IMG/VR virus record: IMGVR_UViG_3300045988_034415
Coordinates: 82,807 to 146,806 of that record
Strand: one strand, 5' to 3'
DNA: 64,000 nt
Origin: a virus
Position numbers and translations under genes: made by a program. Positions 23,515 through 46,864 of this stretch are shown one piece after another. Numbering within the stretch: position 1 is the stretch's first letter; each line of letters begins with the position of its first letter. The notes under the pieces are model-generated. The model ran no database searches and was not told the origin of the DNA. It saw only the letters and a program-made list of their open reading frames with translations.

Positions 23515-24186
23515 ATGAAGAAAGAAGAAAGATTGCAACAGCAATGTGACGTATGTGGGAGGTTGCTAGACAAGAATATAAGCAACTTCAGAAAGTATTC
23601 ACGCAAGACAAACGGCTTAAACTTTCACACTACATGTAGGGATTGTGAAGACCGAATCAAATTGAATACCGAATGGAAAGATGGGAAGCTCTTATGCCAC
23701 ATATGTGGAGAATATAAAGAGCCTAGTGAGTTTACTTATGCAGGGGCTAATAAATACACTTTACGTCAGAATAAGGAGTGTAGGTGCAATTCCTGTAAAC
23801 TAGAACAAAGGAAAGCTGCTATAGCTACTTATGATAACGACGTTAAACTAGAGAAGGTTTTACAAGCACGTTGGCTTGCAGCTAAATCCAGAGCTATAGA
23901 CAAATCTATACCTTTCACTATTACTAAAGAAGATTTACTAACCGTATGGAAGGCACAAAATGGCAAGTGTGCAATTTCTGGATTAGACATGACTTATGAA
24001 TTAGGAGAAGGTCGAATCTATACGAATGTTAGCATTGACCAGATAATGCCCTCAAAAGGTTATACTATAGATAATATACAATTAGTATGTATGGCAGTTA
24101 ATCAACTTAAGTCAGATTTAGATATGGATACTATTTTAATTCTGTGTTCTGCAATAGTTGATAATGCCGCTAAATGGAAGCATTAA
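23515..24186 (+). CDS. HNH-like endonuclease with N-terminal Cys4 zinc fingers (catalytic His replaced by Gln)
   Basis: CDVCGRL...CRDCED...CHICGEY...CRCNSC then GKCAISGLDMT...SIDQIMPSKGYTIDNIQLVCMAVNQLKSD (HNH layout with DQI instead of DHI). Confidence 0.5.
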   Translation: MKKEERLQQQCDVCGRLLDKNISNFRKYSRKTNGLNFHTTCRDCEDRIKLNTEWKDGKLLCHICGEYKEPSEFTYAGANKYTLRQNKECRCNSCKLEQRKAAIATYDNDVKLEKVLQARWLAAKSRAIDKSIPFTITKEDLLTVWKAQNGKCAISGLDMTYELGEGRIYTNVSIDQIMPSKGYTIDNIQLVCMAVNQLKSDLDMDTILILCSAIVDNAAKWKH

Positions 24187-24554
24187 CTATGAAATTTAAG
24201 TACGACAAATCTAAAGGATTGCTATTCTTTATCAATCCGTTACTTCCGGTAAAAGGATATTCATTTATGAATATTTGTGCTATTATGTTTACTAGAAGTG
24301 AGGATTATATAAAGAGAATGAGTCAAGCTACAGTTACACATGAGAAGACTCACACGAAACAGATATTAGAAATGGGAATAGTATTCTTCTATTTATGGTA
24401 TGTAATAGAGTGGTTTATTAAATTACTAGCTAGTGGCAATGCTCACACTGCCTATAGAAACATATCATTTGAAAGAGAAGCTAGATACGCGGCTGAACAT
24501 CTTGAATACGAGAGGAAGACTTTCAGCTATGGCTGGTTTAAGTGGTTATTATGA
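24174..24554 (+). CDS. hypothetical membrane protein (126 aa)
   Basis: ORF track; hydrophobic segments. Confidence 0.45.
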   Translation: MEALTMKFKYDKSKGLLFFINPLLPVKGYSFMNICAIMFTRSEDYIKRMSQATVTHEKTHTKQILEMGIVFFYLWYVIEWFIKLLASGNAHTAYRNISFEREARYAAEHLEYERKTFSYGWFKWLL

Positions 24555-24609: not shown

Positions 24610-25000
24610 ATGACTTTAATTCAAAATGAAGACAACAAATGCCCTACCACTAAACAAGTGAATGACGCACTCAAGTCTATGGGGGGGGGTTCAGACCCTA
24701 GTTTTAACAACAAAAGATTTGATTCATCCAGGTAGAAGTAGTAATCTAGAGATTAACAGTGCTGATAGTGCTGTAATGGAGATTGTGAAGTCTAATATGA
24801 CAGACATGGTCCCATTTCAGTTACTGTATTATGGAGTATCTAATGGTACGCCAACATGTATTAGTGTGGCAATAGTCGGAATTCCAATAGCTAATTTGTT
24901 CACATTATACGTAAATGTAAATCAAAGTGGTTTACAGCACTTTAGCCTTAACAAAGGCTCCAATCAAAAGTGGATTGCTTCTACACTTAGTAATTCTTAA
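24610..25000 (+). CDS. G9-tract-disrupted gene: ATG 24610, frame shifts at G9 (24681-24689) into ORF 24662..25000
   Basis: Own translation: MTLIQNEDNKCPTTKQVNDALKSMGGG then stop at 24733 in register; the G8 or G11 register gives one continuous 129-aa ORF. Confidence 0.45.
24681..24689 (+). repeat. G9 homopolymer in the N-terminal Gly-Gly-Gly codons of gene 24610
   Basis: Read directly: tat ggggggggg ttcag. Confidence 0.95.
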
Positions 25001-25031: not shown

Positions 25032-25235
25032 ATGAGAAATTTTATATTTGACGTCTGGGTTTGGTCTAAAGCCAAACACTCCAGACTACTTAAGCAAATA
25101 AGGGTAAAGGCACTATCGTTTCCTTCAGACATGTTCTGTTTGAACGAAGCTGCTAAAGATGCAGATGTATCACCCTACATGAAATCAGATGAATTTGAAG
25201 TAACAATTGGTAATTTAAGAGAATATCAAGAATAA
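25032..25235 (+). CDS. hypothetical protein (67 aa)
   Basis: ORF track. Confidence 0.4.
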   Translation: MRNFIFDVWVWSKAKHSRLLKQIRVKALSFPSDMFCLNEAAKDADVSPYMKSDEFEVTIGNLREYQE

Positions 25236-25729
25236 TGGAAAGCACTAATGAATTAGTAACAGCAGCTGAAGCCAGAGCAGAAGGCTTGAGCTTAGACGGA
25301 GTTGCGAACAATAGATGCATTACTAAGCAACAGTTCAATGATAACCTACCGTCGGGGGGGGGTATTGCTGACGCTATAGATTTATTAAACGGTTCACTAG
25401 GCGGCAGCACCCTAATATTCTTTAATAACACTACTACAGACACTACAATGGGTATATCAATCATGAATATGTATGGTCAAAGCACATCGGCTACACCAGA
25501 TATTCCTGCTTCATCTATGGTGGTATACCCTATAGCAGGTGCTATAAGAAATATAGCTTTGTTTGGCAATAGTGTGATTGGAAGTAATACTTACGTAGCA
25601 TTCCTATTAAATAATGCAAAGAATATGAATTACTATTCTAATTATGAAACAGATAGACTTACTATAGGAACTAATCAGAATATGCCAGTACAGGGTCTAC
25701 TTGCCGTTATGTGTATAAACAATACATAG
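25235..25729 (+). CDS. hypothetical protein (164 aa) carrying an in-frame G9 tract; ends with TAG
   Basis: ORF track; ...NLPSGGGIADAIDLL over the G9 at 25354-25362. Confidence 0.5.
   Translation: MESTNELVTAAEARAEGLSLDGVANNRCITKQQFNDNLPSGGGIADAIDLLNGSLGGSTLIFFNNTTTDTTMGISIMNMYGQSTSATPDIPASSMVVYPIAGAIRNIALFGNSVIGSNTYVAFLLNNAKNMNYYSNYETDRLTIGTNQNMPVQGLLAVMCINNT
25354..25362 (+). repeat. G9 homopolymer (in frame, Gly-Gly-Gly)
   Basis: Read directly: ccgtcg ggggggggg tattg. Confidence 0.95.
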
Positions 25730-25741
25730 CAAGTATTTAAA

Positions 25742-26284
25742 ATGACAAATAAAATTGCAACAGAACAATATTTAATTAATTTAGCTGGTGGAGGTACAAA
25801 TACTCCAACCAAGTGTGCCACTAGAGATAGAGTAGAGTTCTTCGGACTTGAAACTAACGATAATTACGCTAATAATCAGTTAGTTAAGGAAGAGGATATA
25901 CAGTTGTCAACATTCCAGTATGACTTCAATATACATGTTTCAATAACTAACTCTGGGCTTACGTCTAAATCCTATGACTTTGTAGCAGATGTTTACATAG
26001 ATGGAGTTCCAGATGGGTTTATAACAATTCCTAGGTCTGGAACTCTAGACTATCAAGGGGCAACTTTCTTTGACAGAAACTTCCACTTTAATTTACCAAC
26101 TGATTTAACTAATGTCTCTAAATTATTGTTCACTGGATATTTCAGTACATACAGGGTGACTGTAGATGCAGATAATGTAACAAATAACGCAGTATGCCAA
26201 TCTGGGGTAACTACTGAAATACCAATAAATCAGGCATATATAGGAGGTGACACAGCTAATATTTCTATAAATGTAATTATATAA
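25742..26284 (+). CDS. hypothetical protein (180 aa); in frame with the upstream TAG-terminated ORF
   Basis: ORF track; the 12-nt linker has no stop. Confidence 0.5.
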   Translation: MTNKIATEQYLINLAGGGTNTPTKCATRDRVEFFGLETNDNYANNQLVKEEDIQLSTFQYDFNIHVSITNSGLTSKSYDFVADVYIDGVPDGFITIPRSGTLDYQGATFFDRNFHFNLPTDLTNVSKLLFTGYFSTYRVTVDADNVTNNAVCQSGVTTEIPINQAYIGGDTANISINVII

Positions 26285-26526
26285 TGAAGTTTGTAACATT
26301 CTTAAAGCAAGTATTCACATCCCACTCTGGCATATCATCTAAGAGACTCTGCGGAGTAGTAGGGTGGTTTGTCTGCTTGGGAGTGTTAATATACTGTGCA
26401 ATAAACGTAATTCAAGCCCCATTAATGATAGACACAGTCCTGTTGTGTTGTATGGGATTGCTTGGCATAGATTCAGTAACAGGAATATGGAAGAGATTCA
26501 CCAATAACGATAAATCGAATAAATAA
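26284..26526 (+). CDS. holin-like small membrane protein (80 aa, two TM helices)
   Basis: LCGVVGWFVCLGVLIYCAINVI and LLCCMGLLGIDSVTGIW hydrophobic helices, charged C-terminus; directly upstream of the SLT-domain gene. Confidence 0.35.
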   Translation: MKFVTFLKQVFTSHSGISSKRLCGVVGWFVCLGVLIYCAINVIQAPLMIDTVLLCCMGLLGIDSVTGIWKRFTNNDKSNK

Positions 26527-28778
26527 TGAAAGTAATACCTAAACTACAACAAGGAAACACCATAGAGTCCGATAATACTAAAGTAGTTAGGCCAGAAATT
26601 CATGAACCTATTAAAGCTAAACCTAAACAGTATTCCATTGTAGATTTAGGTGGAGAACCTTCTAATGATACCAGGTCAGCTGCTGAAAGAAATAGAGACT
26701 ATTGGCATCCTATTAAAGGAGCTAAAGCCAGATTCAGGGCTTCTATGTCCAATGAGACTAATCCTCTAGTTGGAATAGAAAGAACTATACTTCCCTCAGC
26801 AGCTGGCGCTGCATTAGTAACAACTCCAGCCGCTGTTGTAGGAGGAGCTTTAGGTAATATGACTGTGGATAAGCTTACCGGGGGCTGGGGTAACTGGTTG
26901 GAAGATAAAACTGGCATTCCGTCCGAAATTGGAATTTATACTAATCCAGGAGCTTGGTATGGTGGTGCTAAAGGATATAAGATTGGAAAGGACAAGTTAA
27001 TAACTAAATCAATTAAAGGTGACGCTGACTTAGCTTGGAATCCTATTAACAAGAATCATTGGATATTTAATAAGGAAGCAAGGACTCCTTCTAATATAGC
27101 AATGGCAACAGCTAACAGAATTACTCCATTTCTATCTAAGGTAGAGAAATTACCATTAAAAGTGGCTGCTTATAAAGCTGCCAAGAGAACTAACGGTAAT
27201 GCATCAGTAAGTTTGCAAGATATAAAAACAATGCCAGCCGACTACACAGGTTCTTCAATACTAGGTGGAGGAAATTTAGAAGGTAGGAATCTATTAGCTA
27301 AATATATATTTGATGAGAATCCAGTAGTTAAAAGAATGTTCTTTAATAAAGCTACTAGTAATATCAAACCTATTAGCCGTAATGAAGCAAGGAGAGGATT
27401 TAGTCATGGGGATAGATATGAGCAGCTTTATCCTGGAGTTCATAACAGAAGATACGAAATGAGTGCAGTAGTACCCTCTGGTAGACCTCTTAAGTTTGAG
27501 AATGTTACAAAGTTTACTGATTATGCTGGAAAGAATCCAATCGGCAAGGTTGTTGGTAAGGAGACTGAACCAGTAATGCGTATGGGAGATAAAGAGTTTA
27601 TGACCTTTAGGCAGCCAGGAACCGATTATATAGGTCCTATTGATGACGTTACTGGACACTTGGTTAAGTTTCAAATGAATAAGGGTAAGCTTAGACAGAC
27701 TTCTCAAGATATGTGGAAATTTAATCCTGCTGACTATGCTAAGAGGTGGAATGATTCTCCTAATACTGCTAACCAAGTTAGGCTTACTAAACAAGCTGCA
27801 TTAATGGATAAAGTAGGTCGTCCGTTTTTTATACTACAGCAATCTAATCCTATATGGATTGAAGGTAAGTCTGTTAGAAATCCAGAATTAGTAACTATGG
27901 CACATGGTGGAAGATTTGATTTTAAGAAGTCCCCTCTGTTAAAGAAACAAGAAGAGATTAACGGTAAAAGGGACATGCGCAAGAAGTTCATCAAATCAAG
28001 TCGCCCAACCTATAAGAAGCGAATCAAGAAAGCTCAACAAGGAATGAAGTTCGTAAGTTATAATCCAGTAAGTAATCCTACAATAGATTACACTGATATT
28101 ACTAATCCTATTAATCCATTTAGTGAGTATAATTATAATACAACTTACGATAAACCAGAGGCTTTAGTAGTACCAGTAAGAGATACTAATGAACCTGATG
28201 TAGTAGCTAATAATCCTACAGCAGAGCCAGTAATTAATAAGCCAGTAGCTAGTAAAGTTACATATACTCCTAAATCATATAAAGGATTAGCTGCATTTAA
28301 TAAGGCTTATGATGAAGTAGAAGCTAGTAATCCAGAAGCTAAGAAGTATAGGCAATTCCTTACTAAAATGGCAGAGCAGGAATCTGGATTTAATAGTGCA
28401 ATTCAGAATAGAGCAGGAGCACCTGCCTATGGCTATTTCCAATTCATGCAGGATGATAAGAAGTATAACAACATTAGACAGTATGCAGGTACGGATATAG
28501 AGACATTTAGAAATAATCCTAAGCTACAAATAGAAGCTGCAATTAGACTTGCCAAATCATTCGAGAAGGGATTCAGTAAAGAGGATTTGGAACTTGCTAA
28601 TAAGAATGGATATTCTACTTGGGGATTATTAGGTGGAGCTTGGTTAGCAGGTAATGGTGGTGTACGTAAGTTCTTAAGAGGACAAGGTAATCCTTCTGAT
28701 AGACATTGGAGTAAAGAAGGTAAAGGTACTGATGTAGCTACTAGGATTAAGGCATTTAATTTTAAGGAAGGTGGTTAG
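26526..28778 (+). CDS. 750-aa protein with C-terminal SLT lytic transglycosylase domain (virion-associated or lysis enzyme)
   Basis: Motif MAEQESGFNSAIQNRAGAPAYGYFQFMQ matches the SLT/GH23 core (ES...N..A....GA.G..Q.MQ); ends in TAG. Confidence 0.55.
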   Translation: MKVIPKLQQGNTIESDNTKVVRPEIHEPIKAKPKQYSIVDLGGEPSNDTRSAAERNRDYWHPIKGAKARFRASMSNETNPLVGIERTILPSAAGAALVTTPAAVVGGALGNMTVDKLTGGWGNWLEDKTGIPSEIGIYTNPGAWYGGAKGYKIGKDKLITKSIKGDADLAWNPINKNHWIFNKEARTPSNIAMATANRITPFLSKVEKLPLKVAAYKAAKRTNGNASVSLQDIKTMPADYTGSSILGGGNLEGRNLLAKYIFDENPVVKRMFFNKATSNIKPISRNEARRGFSHGDRYEQLYPGVHNRRYEMSAVVPSGRPLKFENVTKFTDYAGKNPIGKVVGKETEPVMRMGDKEFMTFRQPGTDYIGPIDDVTGHLVKFQMNKGKLRQTSQDMWKFNPADYAKRWNDSPNTANQVRLTKQAALMDKVGRPFFILQQSNPIWIEGKSVRNPELVTMAHGGRFDFKKSPLLKKQEEINGKRDMRKKFIKSSRPTYKKRIKKAQQGMKFVSYNPVSNPTIDYTDITNPINPFSEYNYNTTYDKPEALVVPVRDTNEPDVVANNPTAEPVINKPVASKVTYTPKSYKGLAAFNKAYDEVEASNPEAKKYRQFLTKMAEQESGFNSAIQNRAGAPAYGYFQFMQDDKKYNNIRQYAGTDIETFRNNPKLQIEAAIRLAKSFEKGFSKEDLELANKNGYSTWGLLGGAWLAGNGGVRKFLRGQGNPSDRHWSKEGKGTDVATRIKAFNFKEGG

Positions 28779-30797: not shown

Positions 30798-31883
30798 ATG
30801 AGTAGAATAGTAACACAAAGTAAATTAAACGAATTAACAGGTAAGAATATAGATTACGGGAAGGGGGGGGGTTATTGTCCTCACTACCAAATCATAGTTA
30901 GTCTCTGGGGTAGCGTAGTTGCGTCTAGTAACTACCAGCCAAATCAATTAGTTAAAGAAGAAGATATAGTTGTAGACAAAGACCTATTCCTTATTAATGC
31001 GGAGACAGGTAGTTTATACTTTGCTGGCGGTGGTACCTATGCTCAAATTCCAGCTATAGACGGCCATGAGGATTTTATGTACATAGCTGGAGGAGGTGAA
31101 GCAATTGGAGCATTGTCTGTGCTTGGAGGATTGTATGTAGTTAATCAGTCTACCAAACAGTGGGAATTAAAATACAAAGATACTGTAAGAGCTTATAGTT
31201 ATGCTCGCTTGGCTAGGTTCTCTACTGGCTGGGTATTTTATAAGGGAGCAGGAGGAGACGGTAAGAACTATGTTATTATAGTGTATGATGACGGTACAGT
31301 AAAGGAGCGTAGTGTTGTAGGCCCAGTCAGCAGCATATCAACTGGGCCTTATGATTACTGCTGTGTTGGGGCATCATATCAGGGAGGAGCTAGAATATAT
31401 ACCTTCTTGGCTACATCTGTACCAGATTCTCTTACTTATTATACTCCTGGAATGTTTACACCAAGTGCAGTAATACAAGGGTTTCATTCTTCGCCAAGAA
31501 GTGTAGTATATAGCACTACTAGTAATTATACATACGTTAGTGCTAATCCAACTGGAACTCAATGGACTGCTGCAACCACTAGACCACAACTAACAGGTTT
31601 GACTAAAGGATTGTATGTAAATGAAGCTAGGACTAATACATTTATGCTTATAGGAAATAATATGAAGAGTGTGTCTACAGATGGGGGTAATAATTGGACT
31701 ACATCTACACTAGGTGAATATACTCTTACTGATTTAATATATGTAGATTCAAATTGGTATGCAATTGGTTCGAATAAAGCTAAAAGACTCCTATTGCAGA
31801 ATACAGCTTCTACATTTGACCAAAGTAATAAAATACTTGACTTGCCTGACTATTCTAGCCAAGTAATTAAAATTAGTACATAA
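30798..31883 (+). CDS. hypothetical protein (~361 aa) with an in-frame G9 tract near the N-terminus; start moved to ATG 30798
   Basis: The track ORF 30708.. overlaps the upstream gene by 77 nt; MSRIVTQSKLNE start at 30798 avoids the overlap; GKGGGYCPHYQ over G9 30863-30871. Confidence 0.5.
   Translation: MSRIVTQSKLNELTGKNIDYGKGGGYCPHYQIIVSLWGSVVASSNYQPNQLVKEEDIVVDKDLFLINAETGSLYFAGGGTYAQIPAIDGHEDFMYIAGGGEAIGALSVLGGLYVVNQSTKQWELKYKDTVRAYSYARLARFSTGWVFYKGAGGDGKNYVIIVYDDGTVKERSVVGPVSSISTGPYDYCCVGASYQGGARIYTFLATSVPDSLTYYTPGMFTPSAVIQGFHSSPRSVVYSTTSNYTYVSANPTGTQWTAATTRPQLTGLTKGLYVNEARTNTFMLIGNNMKSVSTDGGNNWTTSTLGEYTLTDLIYVDSNWYAIGSNKAKRLLLQNTASTFDQSNKILDLPDYSSQVIKIST
30863..30871 (+). repeat. G9 homopolymer (in frame, Gly-Gly-Gly)
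   Basis: Read directly: cggg aa ggggggggg ttattg. Confidence 0.95.
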
Positions 31884-31897
31884 CAGGTTGATATAAT

Positions 31898-31945
31898 AAA
31901 GCCCGAGCCTAGTAATTAAACTAAGTTCGGGCTTTGTTGTTTATA
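31898..31945. terminator. bidirectional intrinsic terminator between convergent genes
   Basis: aaagcccga (31898-31906) pairs with tcgggcttt (31927-31935); A-run on the left and T-run (gttgtttat) on the right. Confidence 0.5.
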
Positions 31946-32065
31946 ATAAGATTCCGTCTCGGTAAGTGAGAATACGTCAGAGCACACTGTCGTAGACCAC
32001 CAAGACGAAGATGTAAAAACTATCTTAGGCTTTGTGCCTAGCATCTACTGGCTGGTATCAATTTA

Positions 32066-32920
32066 TTATATAGCTGTAGTGTCTATAGAGAATGTCACGT
32101 ACCACCAATATAAATCATCTGCATTATCTATCCCAACTTCTAGTAGCTGTGACCAATTTACTCCTTTATATTTCCTTAAGTTTTTAAGCACATTTAGAAC
32201 ATCTTCCATAGAATTAATAATACATCCTTCAGCCCCATTTGTTCCATTGCTAATTGTCATATAAACTTGTAATTTAGATTTACCTCTAGGAACAACGGCA
32301 AATGTTTCATAATGGTCTTTTATGTTCAAAATAATATCTTCTATATGTTCTAGAACATTGGCTTGTAAGGGTTCGCCAGTCAGGTTACACATTCTTAAGC
32401 CTTTGGGGGTTCTTTCATAATATAAATGCTTTAAGGACCCAAGTGTATCATACCAAGTTCCAGAGTTAAACAGTTTAATTACTTGTTTACGTTCCTCCTC
32501 ATTATAAGGACTCCACCTATTCCCAAATCCTCTACTGGTTCTATCATTGTATGTTTCTGTTCCCGATTGTACTATATAGTCAATGATATCATCCAAATTA
32601 GATTCTATTATTTCAGTAGCGTAGTCTAAGGGATACTTTCCGTCAACTACTTTAGTAGTATCAGCCTCAAGAATGAGATATTCTTCATGCGAGAACAATA
32701 GCTCTCTGGTTTCGGAAGTAGAGAATATGCAGGCATTTGTGTCAAATAGAAAGCTGTCAGCCTGATGTTTTACCCCTGTTAGACAGTCAATACAGAATTG
32801 TTTTATCTTATCTCTTTGTGCCTTTAGTGATGATGCTATATCATTACAATTGAACTGTAAATTTATAGATTGCATATCAAAGTAAAGGATTAGCCATTTA
32901 TTATACTCCTCATTTATCAT
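32066..32920 (-). CDS. hypothetical protein (284 aa)
   Basis: ORF track. Confidence 0.5.
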   Translation of the reverse strand: MINEEYNKWLILYFDMQSINLQFNCNDIASSLKAQRDKIKQFCIDCLTGVKHQADSFLFDTNACIFSTSETRELLFSHEEYLILEADTTKVVDGKYPLDYATEIIESNLDDIIDYIVQSGTETYNDRTSRGFGNRWSPYNEEERKQVIKLFNSGTWYDTLGSLKHLYYERTPKGLRMCNLTGEPLQANVLEHIEDIILNIKDHYETFAVVPRGKSKLQVYMTISNGTNGAEGCIINSMEDVLNVLKNLRKYKGVNWSQLLEVGIDNADDLYWWYVTFSIDTTAI

Positions 32921-32926
32921 AGTTCA

Positions 32927-33208
32927 TCAATCAAAACTTCCAAAACTAGCTACTAAGCTCATTGGTATGTGTACTGTATCTTTTACTCTACGAGTACCGT
33001 CCTCATTACAATGATTCTCAATACCTCTTCCCAATATTATTGATTTATCATCCATATATGCCAAGTAGCCCACTGTGGTTATCAAATTCTCATCTGGGCA
33101 TTTTCCTAGTATATGTCCTCCACGCAATACGTATCTATCGTCCCAATGAACCCACATAGGTTCTCCTACTTCATATCCTAGTTTCTGTACATTTAATTTA
33201 TTATCCAT
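32927..33208 (-). CDS. hypothetical protein (93 aa)
   Basis: ORF track. Confidence 0.45.
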   Translation of the reverse strand: MDNKLNVQKLGYEVGEPMWVHWDDRYVLRGGHILGKCPDENLITTVGYLAYMDDKSIILGRGIENHCNEDGTRRVKDTVHIPMSLVASFGSFD

Positions 33209-33209
33209 A

Positions 33210-33890
33210 TTAACTACCTACAAGTATTTTAACATTACCAGTCTCTATATCGAGAGTAGCTTTCTCAAGCCATAAATCTTCTATATGATGTCCCCATATT
33301 CCATACTTACCTGGATTCTCCTTCTCTTCTTCGTAAATCCTTCTATATGCAAGAACTATTTCATTTATCAAATCATTCAAAACGATACATTTAACAGTGA
33401 ATGTGTATGGATTCTTTAACGGATAATTAATAGTTACGTTTACTGTATGATTCTTGAAATAGCTATCAACATGACCAAAGAGGAAAATTCCACAGTCAAT
33501 GGAGTATTTATGAATCTTTATGTTAACACCTTTAGGAAGTAATTCGCGCTCCCTCTCTATTGTGAATTTAGACGGAAGTCTGTTTATTACTTCCTGCATA
33601 TCAAAGTCCTTGTCACCATATACACCTATTCCAGATTCTTTATGCTGAACATACACATAATACATTAGCCTATATTGATTGTCTCCTACACAAACATCTA
33701 GCTCATGCATACTAATATCATAATCTGGATTTAATTCCCTAATTTCATTTAGCCTATCGTTATCATTAAAGATTGCACAGATGGTTTGGTCCGCTTGTTC
33801 CTCCGTTATCAAATTGTTCTCTAGTAATTTGCCTACTAGGACAGGTACTATCTCCTCCACTTCATCAACATTAATTAATCGCTTTCCCAT
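33210..33890 (-). CDS. hypothetical protein (226 aa)
   Basis: ORF track. Confidence 0.5.
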   Translation of the reverse strand: MGKRLINVDEVEEIVPVLVGKLLENNLITEEQADQTICAIFNDNDRLNEIRELNPDYDISMHELDVCVGDNQYRLMYYVYVQHKESGIGVYGDKDFDMQEVINRLPSKFTIERERELLPKGVNIKIHKYSIDCGIFLFGHVDSYFKNHTVNVTINYPLKNPYTFTVKCIVLNDLINEIVLAYRRIYEEEKENPGKYGIWGHHIEDLWLEKATLDIETGNVKILVGS

Positions 33891-34084
33891 TCTTCTTCTA
33901 ATGTATTATATAATTTAATAAAATCTTCTCCTTTATATTCACATACACATTCATTATCCTTATTAAAGATAGTAAGCATGTGCATATCCTTAGATTGTCC
34001 ATTGTCTACATAAGAATACATCCCGTGTACCAATACGTATTCGGGATGTTTCTCATTCCAGTTATTTACAAGTTCCTTCATCAC
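33875..34084 (-). CDS. hypothetical protein (69 aa)
   Basis: ORF track; overlapping start/stop arrangement. Confidence 0.4.
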   Translation of the reverse strand: MMKELVNNWNEKHPEYVLVHGMYSYVDNGQSKDMHMLTIFNKDNECVCEYKGEDFIKLYNTLEEEWESD

Positions 34085-34322
34085 TAAGTGTTATTCCATT
34101 ACTAGCATAAGATATAAATGTACCTGTGTCATATGGTCTCCAGCCACTATTATCTCTACGTATAGTAGTTGTCTGTCCTACGTTAAATTGTGAAATCTCT
34201 ACTATGTTATCAAGAACTCTAAATAAGTCCTCTATTGATAAGTTTGGAAGTATCTGATGTAAATTCTCTAATGTCTTTCTAACGTCAATCATAATAGTAT
34301 ATTTTAGCAAATTGTACATCAC
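34062..34322 (-). CDS. hypothetical protein (86 aa)
   Basis: ORF track. Confidence 0.4.
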   Translation of the reverse strand: MMYNLLKYTIMIDVRKTLENLHQILPNLSIEDLFRVLDNIVEISQFNVGQTTTIRRDNSGWRPYDTGTFISYASNGITLSDEGTCK

Positions 34323-34524
34323 CTATACTAATATTAGGCAGTAATACTTTATATAGTTCTGTAGATTCAAATGTATCTTTATATTCCCTAGGAACTAACA
34401 GAGTATCAACATGATGTCCTCTAGATATTCTAGCTAGATAGGAAATTTTACTATCATCAAAGTCTGTAAGTTCCAACATAATGGCATTATGATGCCTAGG
34501 ACAGTTCCCACTAAGTATTATCAT
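34285..34524 (-). CDS. hypothetical protein (79 aa)
   Basis: ORF track. Confidence 0.4.
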   Translation of the reverse strand: MIILSGNCPRHHNAIMLELTDFDDSKISYLARISRGHHVDTLLVPREYKDTFESTELYKVLLPNISIGDVQFAKIYYYD

Positions 34525-34527
34525 AAT

Positions 34528-34689
34528 TACTTCTCCTGTAGTAAGATTCTCATCTCTTCCTTCCAGTTCTTATACCACTGTTCATTAATAAGGTCTTCTG
34601 ATTCAATTAATTCAATCAAATCCTTAGTGCCATTATGAATTTGGCTACATAAATACTGTGCTAATTGGTTCTTTAATTCATCCATAATT
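34528..34689 (-). CDS. small hypothetical protein (53 aa, below the track cutoff)
   Basis: Own translation MDELKNQLAQYLCSQIHNGTKDLIELIESEDLINEQWYKNWKEEMRILLQEK fills the gap between flanking genes. Confidence 0.3.
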
Positions 34690-34690
34690 A

Positions 34691-34888
34691 TTAGTCTTTA
34701 GTTTTAACATAAAGTTGGCAATGGCAAGTCCCTTCTTCCATTTCCCTAAACTCTTTACACATACATACTGTATCTTCATCTCTTACTAAAGAGCATGGAC
34801 AATACTTCTTACCATACTTCTCTTTATTCCTTTTAAGTCCTGCTAGGACTGTTTCCTTTACTTCTTTATTATCAGTTACTTTAATCAT
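34691..34888 (-). CDS. zinc-ribbon-like small protein (65 aa)
   Basis: CPCS...CMCK...CHCQ cysteine pattern. Confidence 0.45.
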   Translation of the reverse strand: MIKVTDNKEVKETVLAGLKRNKEKYGKKYCPCSLVRDEDTVCMCKEFREMEEGTCHCQLYVKTKD

Positions 34889-35531
34889 TGCGCTGACGCT
34901 GTATACAGTTCTATGTTTAGGTCTATTTCCCCACCAGTAAATCTAAATACTCTACCAGAATTATTCATTTTGACCCACCTTCCAGATGAAGGGAGTGTTA
35001 CTCCTTCTGCCCAATTCTCAGATTGAGAATCTACTGCTAATGTAATTTGAGACACTTGCCTAAGCATCACGTATCCCTCAAAACGTATCCAAACAGGTGT
35101 ATTATATGGGTCTTGGTTAGGAAGTGCTAATTTCTCTAAGTAATATTTAAGAGGATTTGCTAAAGTCTTAGTGTACGTTCGTTCTCCTTGCTCTAATCTT
35201 GGAGTAATTGTAAAGTACATAGTATTGTCAGAATACTCAAACGGCTCTCCATTCACTGAACTCTCATTAACAAATGAGAAACGTACTCTAAATTGCCGTA
35301 TATTATTAATTGGCATATCCTGCCAACCATAATGAAGGATTACATTTGGAGCAGTTATAGCTGCCTCTATACCTTCTAACTCTACTAACTGATTATCAGT
35401 ATAACTAAATCCACTTTTAATCTGACATCCTAATTCAAGTGCTCTAGCTTTAGTACAGCACTTATTATCAATTACCGAGAGAGTCCCCCCCCCATAGTCT
35501 TAGCTTCTAATTCTGTTGCTATTTTACTCAT
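34885..35531 (-). CDS. G9-tract-disrupted gene: N-terminal 19 codons (35475-35531) out of register with ORF 34885..35316
   Basis: Minus-strand ATG at 35531 (ATGAGTAA overlap with the upstream stop) reads MSKIATELEAKTMGGGLSR*; one extra G (G10) fuses it in frame to MPINNIRQFRV... giving ~215 aa. Confidence 0.45.
35485..35493 (-). repeat. G9 homopolymer (C9 on the plus strand) in the N-terminal Gly-Gly-Gly codons
   Basis: Read directly: gagagt ccccccccc atagt. Confidence 0.95.
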
Positions 35532-44086: not shown

Positions 44087-44608
44087 GGGCCTAGATTTGG
44101 TTTTGACAGGCGATTACAAGTTAGTAAGACGTGTAGAGTTCGTACCAACTCTTTAATAATGATACAGCAATTTAAGTGGAAACACTGAAGTAAGAATGGC
44201 AGCCTAAGCTGCTGGCTTAATTAGTGGACGTCATTGATTAAGTCGGGTTAATTGGAGAGACCTAGAAACAGAAGAGGTGTGGGAAGAAGCGTATAGAGCA
44301 GCCCACTTAACTTGAAAGCCAAAGGTTAGTAAAGCTGAAATCTCCACTACCTATCTATGGGTTACAAATAGAAACGTTCTCCAACGTAAATGGAGTGGTG
44401 GAGCGACCGTTCGGTCAAGCCCAGTTTGGTAGTTTGTGAACAACTAAGTCGTAGCCCTACGAGGGAGACGTAATTGGTGAATTAACACTCGGCTTCTTAG
44501 TAAAACTACCTACATGCTGAACTCAACAGCTGATGTAATAAAATAGAGACACACGTAATCTTATTAATGAGGGTTGTTTGGACGGCGGTTCGACTCCGCC
44601 TAGGTCCA
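44087..44608 (+). ncRNA. ssrA: tmRNA (ssrA), ~520 nt
   Basis: 5' GGGCCUAGAUUUGGUUUUGACAGGCG resembles E. coli GGGGCUGAUUCUGGAUUCGACGGG; 3' GGACGGCGGUUCGACUCCGCCUAGGUCCA resembles GGACGCGGGUUCAACUCCCGCCAGCUCCACCA; acceptor GGGCCUA pairs with UAGGUCC; short frame ...GNTEVRMAA-TAA at 44163-44207 about 90 nt from the 5' end. Confidence 0.7.
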
Positions 44609-44636
44609 CTATTATTAACGTTTAAATATCAATTTT

Positions 44637-46484: not shown

Positions 46485-46864
46485 ATCCACTATTGACGAA
46501 TAGTGGTAGCAAAACTTGGTCTGAAGAACCAGTAGACATATTCCGGAGTATGTCTATGACTTAAAGGCTATATCAAAGAGTTGAAACCTGTATCTATTCG
46601 AACAGTAGGAGTTCACCTGATTAAGCATCAGAAAACAGTAGTGCAAATCTACTATAGATATTGTGTAAGAGAGAATCTACACGGTCTGCATTATATAATC
46701 AGCATGCAGATAGGTCACCAAGCAAACCTCTTTCCTGCCTGGTCAAGTGTGCATTACGGTCTGTAAGTGGCGAGCGGGTTAACGTATGTCCGATTGCCGT
46801 AATGCCGCTTGTTTATTGTTTAGAATAAAGAAAGACTCTCATAACAATAAATTTAAACAAAGAG

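What the first reader, a model, noticed from the sequence alone, without database searches (positions are those of the whole stretch)
24610..25000. Gene 24610 is split by a G9 tract: a 41-codon N-terminal frame and a 112-aa ORF in the -1 register
ATG 24610 reads MTLIQNEDNKCPTTKQVNDALKSMGGG, passes through G9 (24681-24689) and stops at TAG 24733. The long ORF 24662..25000 in the track starts inside it in another register. A G8 or G11 tract would give a single 129-aa product. The present OFF state may be biological (phase-OFF subpopulation consensus) or a homopolymer miscall.
Basis: seen in the sequence. Interest (0 to 1): 0.6.

Follow-up and report, generated by a model that had tools for sequence, protein, structure and literature searches.

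The report
Phase-variable poly-G genes in gut phage
The G9 run that splits this small gene is one of four slippage-prone poly-G switches in a family of probable surface-binding proteins of a very common crAss-like human gut phage, and here this switch is in the OFF position; such switches were previously documented in phages mainly for Campylobacter phages.

Summary
ATG 24610 reads 41 codons through G9 (24681-24689) to TAG 24733. The 112-aa ORF 24662..25000 lies in the +1 frame. G8 gives a fused 129-aa product and G11 a 130-aa one.

It is not an isolated miscall. The only homopolymers longer than 6 nt in 64 kb are four G9 tracts (24681, 25354, 30863, and 35485 on the minus strand). All four lie at a conserved Gly-Gly(-Gly) in the N-terminal module of one paralogous family.

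In 26 close relatives the orthologous tracts range from G6 to G11. Nine of ten genome pairs with near-identical flanks differ in tract length. ON alleles (G8, G11, interrupted G6AG4) are abundant in public data, and so is the 41-aa OFF peptide, seen on hundreds of contigs. T1 shows dN/dS of about 0.44, so it is not a pseudogene.

The host genome is most likely a zeta crAss-like phage of about 185 kb, predicted to infect Bacteroides.

Best reading: these are slipped-strand contingency loci that toggle accessory, probably virion-surface binding proteins. One paralog carries a 7-bladed beta-propeller. This is a new member of a known kind, the Campylobacter-phage polyG system. Read-level heterogeneity and protein function remain untested.

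The parts
24610..25000 (+). T1 gene, phase-OFF in this window. The N-terminal frame 24610-24735 has 41 codons. The C-terminal domain is read in the +1 frame from the tract to TAA 24998-25000.
   Evidence: Fused orthologs appear. dN/dS is 0.44.
24681..24689 (+). G9 tract of T1. It is ON at G8 or G11 and OFF at G7, G9 or G10. It encodes the conserved Gly-Gly(-Gly) after ...ALKSM.
24662..24664 (+). Internal ATG, created by the conserved Asn-Asp codons AAT GAC. It is in frame with the C-terminal domain only in the G9 (ON+1) state and could give a 112-aa N-truncated product. Its use is unproven.
   Evidence: The 112-aa product is called in public assemblies.
25235..25729 (+). T2 paralog (164 aa), phase-ON here. 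Its G9 tract is at 25354-25362. It ends in TAG.
   Evidence: In relatives: G9 ON in 11, G6 ON in 2, G7/G8/G10/G11 OFF in 12.
25742..26284 (+). Tract-less paralog P5 (180 aa). It has the full N-terminal module, with GGG encoded by GGT GGA GGT.
30798..31883 (+). T3 paralog (361 aa), phase-ON here. Its G9 tract is at 30863-30871. It consists of the N-terminal module plus a 7-bladed beta-propeller.
34885..35531 (-). T4 paralog, phase-OFF here. Its tract is C9 on the + strand at 35485-35493. It would be ON at G10, giving 215 aa. As it stands it reads MSKIATELEAKTMGGGLSR and then stops.
30798..35531 (.). Segment bounded by the T3 and T4 start codons. It is found in the opposite orientation in relatives L008 and L028. 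The T3 gene alone is inverted in L005 and L033.
   Evidence: The boundary homology is weak.

Best explanation
The G9 run is a hypermutable homopolymer, that is, a contingency locus. It lies about 24 codons into a small accessory gene (T1) of a zeta crAss-like gut phage of about 185 kb. Slipped-strand mispairing during phage DNA replication adds or removes G residues. At G8 or G11 the gene encodes one protein of 129 or 130 aa: a conserved N-terminal module followed by a fast-evolving beta-rich C-terminal domain. At G7, G9 or G10 translation ends after 29-41 codons. In this window T1 is in the most common OFF state. Three paralogs carry the same device at the same conserved Gly-Gly(-Gly): T2 is ON, T3 is ON and T4 is OFF. 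One paralog (P5) has no tract. A phage population can therefore hold up to 16 expression combinations. What is shown: the tracts, their restriction to this family, the length variation between near-identical genomes, the frame logic, and purifying selection on T1. What is inferred: that switching is frequent and reversible within a population, and that the proteins are displayed on the virion or otherwise meet the host surface, so that switching acts as bet-hedging on host recognition or on exposure to host defence.
For: (1) Four G9/C9 tracts are the only runs longer than 6 nt in 64 kb, against about 0.01 expected. A and T runs of 6 or more are about 10-fold depleted. A further 100 kb of the same genome has no G/C run of 7 or more. 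(2) All four tracts are sense-strand G, lying 13-40 codons into paralogs that share an N-terminal module. Gly-Gly(-Gly) at that position is ancestral, found in 85 of 141 representatives. (3) Orthologous tracts span G6-G11 in 26 relatives, and ON/OFF follows the length modulo 3. 'Locked-ON' interrupted or shortened tracts exist: G6AG4 at T1, G6AG3 at T4, G6 at T2. (4) Nine of ten genome pairs with 0-4 mismatches in 800 nt of flank differ in tract length, by up to 3 nt. (5) Full-length ON proteins are abundant: 93 G8-type and 27 G11-type among the top 120 of 2057 homologs. The G9-specific 41-aa peptide occurs on 11 contigs exactly, and close variants on 189, 117, 46 and more contigs. (6) The downstream ORF is intact in every OFF genome, and dN/dS is 0.44, the same in OFF-OFF pairs. 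(7) The T1 C-terminal domain is the most variable element locally (median 87%, minimum 57% identity), while its N-module is at 96%. T3 carries a confident 7-bladed beta-propeller. Module-bearing relatives carry BACON, BspA-LRR, InlB-repeat or minor-tail domains. (8) Precedent: Campylobacter Fletchervirus polyG tracts (Sorensen 2021, cited) and T-even contingency loci.
Against: No reads were available, so within-population length heterogeneity and switching rate are unmeasured. Every comparison is between consensus metagenome assemblies, where individual homopolymer calls can be wrong. The overall ON fraction (30 of 79, or 38%) is close to the one third expected with no selection on expression, and one relative (L035) has all four genes OFF. 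The genes are therefore dispensable, and an adaptive role is inferred rather than shown. G9 is the modal length at all four loci whatever the frame. That fits a mutational equilibrium, but would also fit expression by slippage at the RNA or ribosome level. The function of T1 is unknown: there are no Pfam, PHROG, NCBIfam or PDB matches and the T1 structure model is unusable (pLDDT 45). The genes lie outside the recognisable tail-fibre block at 2.9-13 kb.
Confidence: 0.8

Rival explanations
1. Homopolymer miscall. The true tract is G8 (in frame), and G9 is a sequencing or assembly error in this window.
For: Long G runs are error-prone on several platforms, and no reads could be inspected. All the comparative data are consensus assemblies.
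Against: An independent assembly from Mexico has the same G9. Thirteen of 26 relatives have G9. The G9-specific 41-aa peptide is on hundreds of contigs from NCBI, ENA and Logan. Lengths differ by up to 3-4 nt between genomes with identical flanks. To make all genes ON, errors would have to add a base at T1 (G8 to G9) but remove one at T3 and T4 (G10 to G9), which is not how a systematic error behaves.
Confidence: 0.06
2. Programmed recoding. G9 is the intended DNA state, and full-length T1 is made by RNA-polymerase slippage or a +1 ribosomal frameshift on the G run. DNA-level OFF would then not mean protein OFF. This could coexist with DNA-level variation.
For: G9 is the modal length at all four loci regardless of which frame it gives. 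A perfect homopolymer allows tRNA-Gly or the nascent RNA to re-pair in any register (established knowledge of slippery runs).
Against: Recoding sites are conserved in length, whereas this one varies from G6 to G11 between near-identical genomes. Locked-ON alleles with interrupted tracts exist and encode the fused frame directly. There is no stable RNA structure downstream (z = +0.65) and no rare codon or stop in the A site after the tract. Transcriptional slippage is documented mainly for A/T runs (from my own knowledge).
Confidence: 0.12
3. Two separately expressed products. In the G9 state the phage makes a 41-aa N-terminal peptide and, from ATG 24662, a 112-aa protein that lacks the N-terminal module. 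The tract would then switch between isoforms rather than ON and OFF.
For: ATG 24662 is present and is in frame with the C-terminal domain only in the ON+1 state, which is the commonest state. Analogous upstream ATGs exist for T3, where database entries start MGRGGYCP. Gene callers report the 112-aa product.
Against: The ATG is an automatic by-product of the conserved Asn-Asp codons AAT GAC. The truncated product lacks the conserved NKCPTTK motif of the module. In other OFF states (G7, G10) no such start is in frame. There is no evidence of translation.
Confidence: 0.1
4. Decaying pseudogene. T1 is being lost, and the frameshift is ordinary gene decay at a mutational hot spot.
For: Most consensus genomes are OFF at T1 (19 of 26), and one relative has all four family members OFF.
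Against: The downstream ORF stays open (101-105 codons) in all OFF genomes, and the tract is retained in 25 of 26. dN/dS is 0.44, the same in OFF-OFF pairs. ON alleles are abundant. The same device sits in three paralogs.
Confidence: 0.03

Closest known systems
Hypermutable polyG tracts in Campylobacter Fletchervirus phages (Sorensen et al. 2021, Cell Rep 35:109214; cited in PMC12823448 and PMC11959909)
   Same: Both are lytic phage genomes with several long poly-G tracts inside coding regions. Length changes switch genes ON and OFF and create phenotypically mixed progeny. The tracts are concentrated in proteins that meet the host surface.
   Different: The phage lineage is unrelated (zeta crAss-like, 37% GC, Bacteroides predicted, versus roughly 26% GC Campylobacter myoviruses). 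There is no sequence similarity. Here all tracts sit at one conserved Gly-Gly-Gly of a shared N-terminal module in a paralogous family. The host phylum is not known for polyG phase variation. Nothing has been tested experimentally here.
Bacterial simple-sequence contingency loci (Campylobacter, Haemophilus, Neisseria; reviews PMC11868660, PMC8355987)
   Same: The mechanism (slipped-strand mispairing), the placement in the 5' coding region, modal tract lengths around G9, ON lengths spaced by 3 nt, and combinatorial 'phasotypes' all match.
   Different: The genome is a virus replicated by its own polymerase (polA in this clade), so the tracts diversify virions rather than cells.
Contingency loci in T-even and other phages (Gomez, Barrick & Waters 2025 preprint, 10.1101/2025.10.21.683753)
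   Same: Homopolymer slippage in phage genes is proposed as bet-hedging against host defence.
   Different: Those loci are numerous short runs (6 nt or more, mostly A/T; over 100 per genome) spread across all gene classes and under-represented in tail fibres. Here homopolymers are generally avoided, and four long G9 tracts are confined to one gene family.
Diversity-generating retroelements in zeta crAss-like phages (Babkin et al. 2025, PMC12386605)
   Same: Both occur in the same phage group and have the same presumed purpose, namely varying host-interaction proteins.
   Different: A DGR rewrites codons through reverse transcription, whereas this switches whole genes on and off by slippage. 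The Bacteroides-predicted subgroup that matches this window is listed without DGRs.
Invertible tail-fibre segments (Mu G/Gin, P1 C/Cin)
   Same: The T3-T4 segment occurs in both orientations among near-identical genomes.
   Different: No invertase gene and no clear crossover repeats were found. Whole genes flip, rather than C-terminal cassettes.

Membership tests
Homopolymer (SSR) contingency locus / phase-variable gene | Long mononucleotide run inside the coding region (or promoter) of the gene | tested here: met
   G9 at 24681-24689, 24 codons after ATG 24610.
Homopolymer (SSR) contingency locus / phase-variable gene | Tract more frequent or longer than composition predicts | tested here: met
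   Four G9/C9 tracts against about 0.01 expected. A/T runs of 6 or more are about 10-fold depleted. No tract in another 100 kb of the genome.
Homopolymer (SSR) contingency locus / phase-variable gene | Tract length polymorphic among otherwise near-identical genomes | tested here: met
   G6-G11 across 26 relatives. Nine of ten pairs with 0-4 flank mismatches differ in length.
Homopolymer (SSR) contingency locus / phase-variable gene | Length changes toggle the reading frame, with ON lengths spaced by 3 nt | tested here: met
   T1 is ON at G8 or G11 (129 or 130 aa) and OFF at G7, G9 or G10.
Homopolymer (SSR) contingency locus / phase-variable gene | Gene maintained by selection, not a pseudogene | tested here: met
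   dN/dS is 0.44. The downstream ORF is intact in all OFF alleles.
Homopolymer (SSR) contingency locus / phase-variable gene | High-frequency, reversible switching within a clonal population | not testable with these tools
   This needs read pile-ups or propagation of a cultured isolate. Only consensus assemblies were available.
Fletchervirus-type polyG receptor-binding-protein system | Homology or lineage relationship to Campylobacter Fletchervirus genes | tested here: not met
   Megablast and tblastn against 50,697 phage records hit only the unannotated sibling MT835470.1. There are no PHROG hits. The terminase is crAss-like.
Fletchervirus-type polyG receptor-binding-protein system | Tract-bearing genes encode receptor-binding or virion proteins | tested here: inconclusive
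   T3 is the module plus a 7-bladed beta-propeller. Relatives of the module carry BACON, LRR or minor-tail domains. T1 itself has no assignable fold.
Programmed frameshift / transcriptional-slippage recoding site | Slippery sequence conserved in length and sequence among relatives | tested here: not met
   Length varies from G6 to G11, and interrupted variants exist.
Programmed frameshift / transcriptional-slippage recoding site | Stimulatory element (downstream structure or a stalling codon) | tested here: not met
   The 91 nt downstream fold no better than shuffles (z = +0.65). The following codons are GGT TCA GAC.
Zeta crAss-like phages (proposed Echekviridae) | Crassvirales-type terminase and portal; genome of 156-189 kb with a large tRNA set; about 36.7% GC and a CTA tRNA in the Bacteroides-predicted subgroup | tested here: met
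   The terminase is about 30% identical to Crassvirales. The window has 25 tRNAs including CTA and 37.1% GC. Relatives' contigs are 180-189 kb. A T1 homolog lies on an NCBI contig of 182,226 bp, the length listed for zeta phage 3190_52781. No phylogeny was built.
Site-specific invertible segment (Gin/Cin-type) | Adjacent invertase gene and defined inverted-repeat crossover sites | tested here: not met
   Both orientations exist. The genes inside have no recombinase hits, and the boundary homology is only about 19 imperfect nt.

The most novel reading that the evidence does not exclude
A widespread clade of zeta crAss-like Bacteroides phages runs a dedicated four-switch poly-G 'phasome' on a modular family of virion-surface binding proteins. 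Each protein is an uncharacterised 55-aa N-terminal anchor module plus an exchangeable C-terminal binding domain. The switches are combined with inversion of the T3-T4 segment and with domain shuffling at the NQLVKEEDI junction. One infection would then release progeny with many different surface configurations. This would be the first such system outside Campylobacter phages, and it would sit in the dominant phage order of the human gut.
Probability: 0.45. Interest if true: 0.75.

Novelty: new member of a known kind. Interest (0 to 1): 0.62.

Why it matters
crAss-like phages are the most abundant viruses of the human gut. How they persist alongside Bacteroides hosts that constantly phase-vary their capsules is an open question. 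A built-in, multi-locus ON/OFF switchboard on candidate host-binding proteins would be the phage-side counterpart of host phase variation. A 2025 review (PMC11959909) still calls the Campylobacter phage case 'exceptional', and papers on zeta crAss-like phages list DGRs, recoding and polymerase swaps but not this. There is also a practical consequence. These genes will be mis-annotated as split or truncated ORFs in about two thirds of assemblies. Their tract lengths offer a ready-made marker of within-host phage population structure that can be read directly from existing metagenomes.

Tried and rejected
1. TAG recoding by the window's CUA-anticodon tRNA as a rescue of the short frame. Rejected: TAG 24733 is followed by AAG TAG TAA, and there is no general gain of long ORFs under TAG read-through. 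The zeta subgroup is listed as carrying an unused CTA tRNA.
2. Family assignment of T1, T2, P5, T3 and T4 by Pfam, PHROGs and NCBIfam. No hits were found.
3. AlphaFold model of an ON-state T1 ortholog. Its pLDDT was 45, so no fold search was run on it.
4. N-terminal module against PDB sequences and Pfam. Only noise was returned.
5. Module consensus against 50,697 annotated phage records. Only the unannotated sibling record matched.
6. T1 family in the more distant clade (anchor about 59% identical). No homologs or tracts were found within the flanks fetched, so the origin of the tracts could not be dated.
7. Invertase or inverted repeats to explain the T3-T4 inversion. None were convincing.
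8. A frameshift-stimulating RNA structure. None was found.
9. The Sorensen 2021 paper could not be read (not held). It is known only through citing papers.
10. The host was not tested directly. It is taken from the iPHoP prediction in PMC12386605 for genomes of matching size and composition.

Full report
OBSERVATION

The sequence is as described. ATG 24610 opens a 41-codon frame (MTLIQNEDNKCPTTKQVNDALKSMGGGSDPSFNNKRFDSSR). It passes through exactly nine G at 24681-24689 and stops at TAG 24733-24735, which is followed by AAG TAG TAA. ORF 24662..25000 (112 aa) overlaps it in the +1 frame. Deleting one G gives a 129-aa fusion and adding two gives 130 aa.

NOT AN ISOLATED TRACT

The window is 37% G+C. 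Its only homopolymers longer than 6 nt are four G9/C9 runs, at 24681, 25354 and 30863 on the + strand and at 35485 (C9, with the gene on the - strand). About 0.01 such runs are expected. A and T runs of 6 or more are about ten-fold rarer than a first-order model predicts: 2 and 4 observed against 34 and 31 expected, and none of 7 or more. A further 100 kb of the same genome, read from the 98%-identical record MT835470.1, has no G or C run of 7 or more. The genome therefore avoids homopolymers in general and keeps four long ones.

WHERE THE TRACTS SIT

All four tracts are poly-G on the sense strand, 13-40 codons into genes of one paralogous family.
- T1 (24610-25000) is OFF and needs G8 or G11.
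- T2 (25235-25729) is ON.
- T3 (30798-31883) is ON.
- T4 (35531-34885, minus strand) is OFF and needs G10.
- A fifth paralog, P5 (25742-26284), has the same Gly-Gly-Gly encoded by mixed codons and carries no tract.

COMPARATIVE EVIDENCE

I used the conserved 750-aa neighbour gene (26526-28778) as an anchor and fetched 70 related loci with 10-kb flanks. Twenty-six belong to the tract-bearing clade.

The orthologous tracts vary from G6 to G11.
- At T1: G8 in 5 loci and G11 in 1, all ON; an interrupted G6AG4 in 1, ON; G9 in 13, G7 in 3 and G10 in 3, all OFF.
- At T2: G9 in 11 and G6 in 2, ON; 12 loci OFF.
- At T3: 2 of 12 ON.
- At T4: 8 of 16 ON, including an interrupted G6AG3.

The frame state follows tract length modulo 3 in every case. 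The downstream ORF is open in every OFF genome.

Among genome pairs with at most 4 mismatches in 800 nt of flanking sequence, 9 of 10 differ in tract length. Examples are L007 against L039 (identical flanks, G10 versus G7) and L014 against L015 (identical flanks, G10 versus G9 at both T1 and T2). The tract therefore changes faster than any neighbouring site.

PUBLIC PROTEIN DATA

Public protein data agree. The fused T1 has 2057 homologs, and the best 120 are all full length: 93 with Gly-Gly (G8 type) and 27 with Gly-Gly-Gly (G11 type). The window's exact 41-aa OFF peptide is on 11 contigs, and close variants are on 189, 117, 46 and more contigs from NCBI, ENA and Logan. T3 homologs likewise include GG, GGG and GGGG versions, versions interrupted by substitutions, and N-truncated gene calls.

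WHY NOT A MISCALL, PSEUDOGENE OR RECODING SITE

A miscall is unlikely. An independent assembly has the same G9. G9 is the commonest state. To make every gene ON, errors would have to add a base at T1 but remove one at T3 and T4.

A pseudogene is unlikely. dN/dS of the T1 C-terminal domain is 0.44 (222 pairs), and the value is the same for OFF-OFF pairs.

A programmed recoding site should be conserved in length and usually has a stimulator. Here the length varies, locked in-frame alleles exist, and the downstream 91 nt fold no better than shuffles (z = +0.65). I cannot exclude that some slippage at the RNA or ribosome level adds leaky expression from G9. The fact that G9 is the mode at all four loci regardless of frame is compatible with that reading and with a mutational equilibrium.

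TAG read-through by the window's CUA tRNA does not rescue T1, because a TAA follows two codons later. There is also no sign of general TAG recoding.

WHAT THE PROTEINS ARE

None of the five paralogs matches Pfam, PHROGs or NCBIfam.

They share an N-terminal module of about 55 aa, with consensus MGKIATEQEAYNIGGxGTPxxNKCCTKxRAEALGCxVSGSYxxNQLVxxxDL. A profile search of 1.84 billion representatives finds this module at residues 1-55 of 141 proteins that are 30-896 aa long. Gly-Gly or Gly-Gly-Gly at the tract position occurs in 85 of them. The homopolymer is therefore a codon-choice derivative of an ancestral glycine pair.

T1 and T2 carry their tract at the second glycine site of the module. T3 and T4 carry it at the first.

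The module has no PDB or Pfam match, and in the annotated phage collection it is found only in the sibling record.

C-terminal domains of module-bearing proteins occasionally match BACON, BspA-type LRR, InlB B-repeat, Lcl C-terminal or minor-tail families.

Between relatives, the T1 C-terminal domain is the most variable element nearby (median 87%, minimum 57% identity), while its N-module stays at 96% and neighbouring genes at 97-100%. Database entries such as P0125 join the T3 N-module to the P5 C-domain at the NQLVKEEDI junction.

A conserved attachment module followed by a variable, exchangeable binding domain is the usual design of phage fibres and adhesins. This is an inference. The genes lie next to a holin-like gene and an SLT-domain protein, beyond the terminase, and not within the recognisable tail-fibre block at 2.9-13 kb.

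WHAT PHAGE THIS IS

The terminase is about 30% identical to Crassvirales terminases and to those of other phages of Bacteroidota. Relatives' contigs reach 180-189 kb. The window has 25 tRNAs, including a CTA-anticodon one.

Table 1 of Babkin et al. 2025 (PMC12386605) lists a zeta crAss-like subgroup with 36.5-36.9% GC, 23-29 tRNAs, an unused CTA tRNA, polA and predicted host Bacteroides. It includes genome 3190_52781 at 182,226 bp. That is exactly the length of the NCBI contig that carries T1 homolog P0048. I did not build a phylogeny.

WHAT IS KNOWN

[quoted passage not shown] A 2025 preprint reports many short A/T-run contingency loci in T-even and other phages, under-represented in tail fibres. 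The two papers on zeta crAss-like phages mention DGRs, stop-codon recoding, introns and polymerase swaps, but no homopolymers or slippage. My other literature searches found nothing on poly-G tracts in crAss-like phages.

The mechanism is therefore a known kind. This lineage, this gene family and the strict confinement of the tracts to one module are new.

VERDICT

Two things remain undone: read-level proof of heterogeneity within a population, and any direct evidence of what the proteins do.

Noticed in passing
window 30798-35531: The segment between the T3 and T4 start codons is inverted in relatives L008 and L028. The T3 gene alone is inverted in L005 and L033. No invertase gene or clear crossover repeats were found, only about 19 nt of imperfect homology between the two 5' ends.
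   Followed up: partly
window 25727-25744 and 50877-50949: T2 ends in TAG, a rare stop here (4 of 46 long ORFs). The next paralog's ATG follows in the same frame after 12 nt (CAAGTATTTAAA) in 26 of 26 relatives. The window also encodes a CUA-anticodon (amber suppressor) tRNA, so a T2-P5 read-through fusion is conceivable. There is no general TAG recoding in the window.
   Followed up: partly
window 44087-44611 and 46487-46594: Rfam finds a phage-encoded tmRNA (83.7 bits; missed by ARAGORN) and a RAGATH-34 RNA (120.9 bits), upstream of the 25-gene tRNA array at 43.4-63.9 kb.
   Followed up: no
window 62531-63598: A divergent adenylosuccinate-synthase-like gene. It matches PHROG 1211 (a PurZ-type annotation, E = 5e-45) but scores far below the NCBIfam cut-offs for both PurA and PurZ. 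Whether it is a PurZ (2-aminoadenine pathway) enzyme is open.
   Followed up: partly
whole window: Strong avoidance of A/T homopolymers in a 63% A+T genome. A runs of 6 or more: 2 observed against 34 expected. T runs of 6 or more: 4 against 31. None of 7 or more.
   Followed up: yes
P0125, P0127 (database proteins); window junctions near 25880 and 30950: Natural recombinants join the N-terminal module of one paralog to the C-terminal domain of another, exactly at the conserved NQLVKEEDI motif. This suggests domain shuffling within the family.
   Followed up: partly
window 23515-24186: The endonuclease VII/HNH-like gene just upstream of T1 is detectable in only 12 of the close relatives, whereas its neighbour (24174-24554) is found in 26. 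It is probably a mobile homing endonuclease.
   Followed up: no
L066 12773-12829; L067 12945; L068 14013; L060 17624: More distant relatives (anchor 43-62% identical) have C8-C10 and G9 runs in apparently non-coding DNA downstream of the anchor gene. In L066, a C10 and a G9 lie 48 nt apart. This is a different context from the coding tracts.
   Followed up: no
window 30855-30871 (T3) and 24662 (T1): In the ON+1 frame state, an ATG just upstream of the tract comes into frame with the downstream domain. At T1 it is ATG 24662, from the Asn-Asp codons. At T3 it arises from the Tyr-Gly codons and gives database entries that start MGRGGYCP. N-truncated isoforms are possible but unproven.
   Followed up: partly
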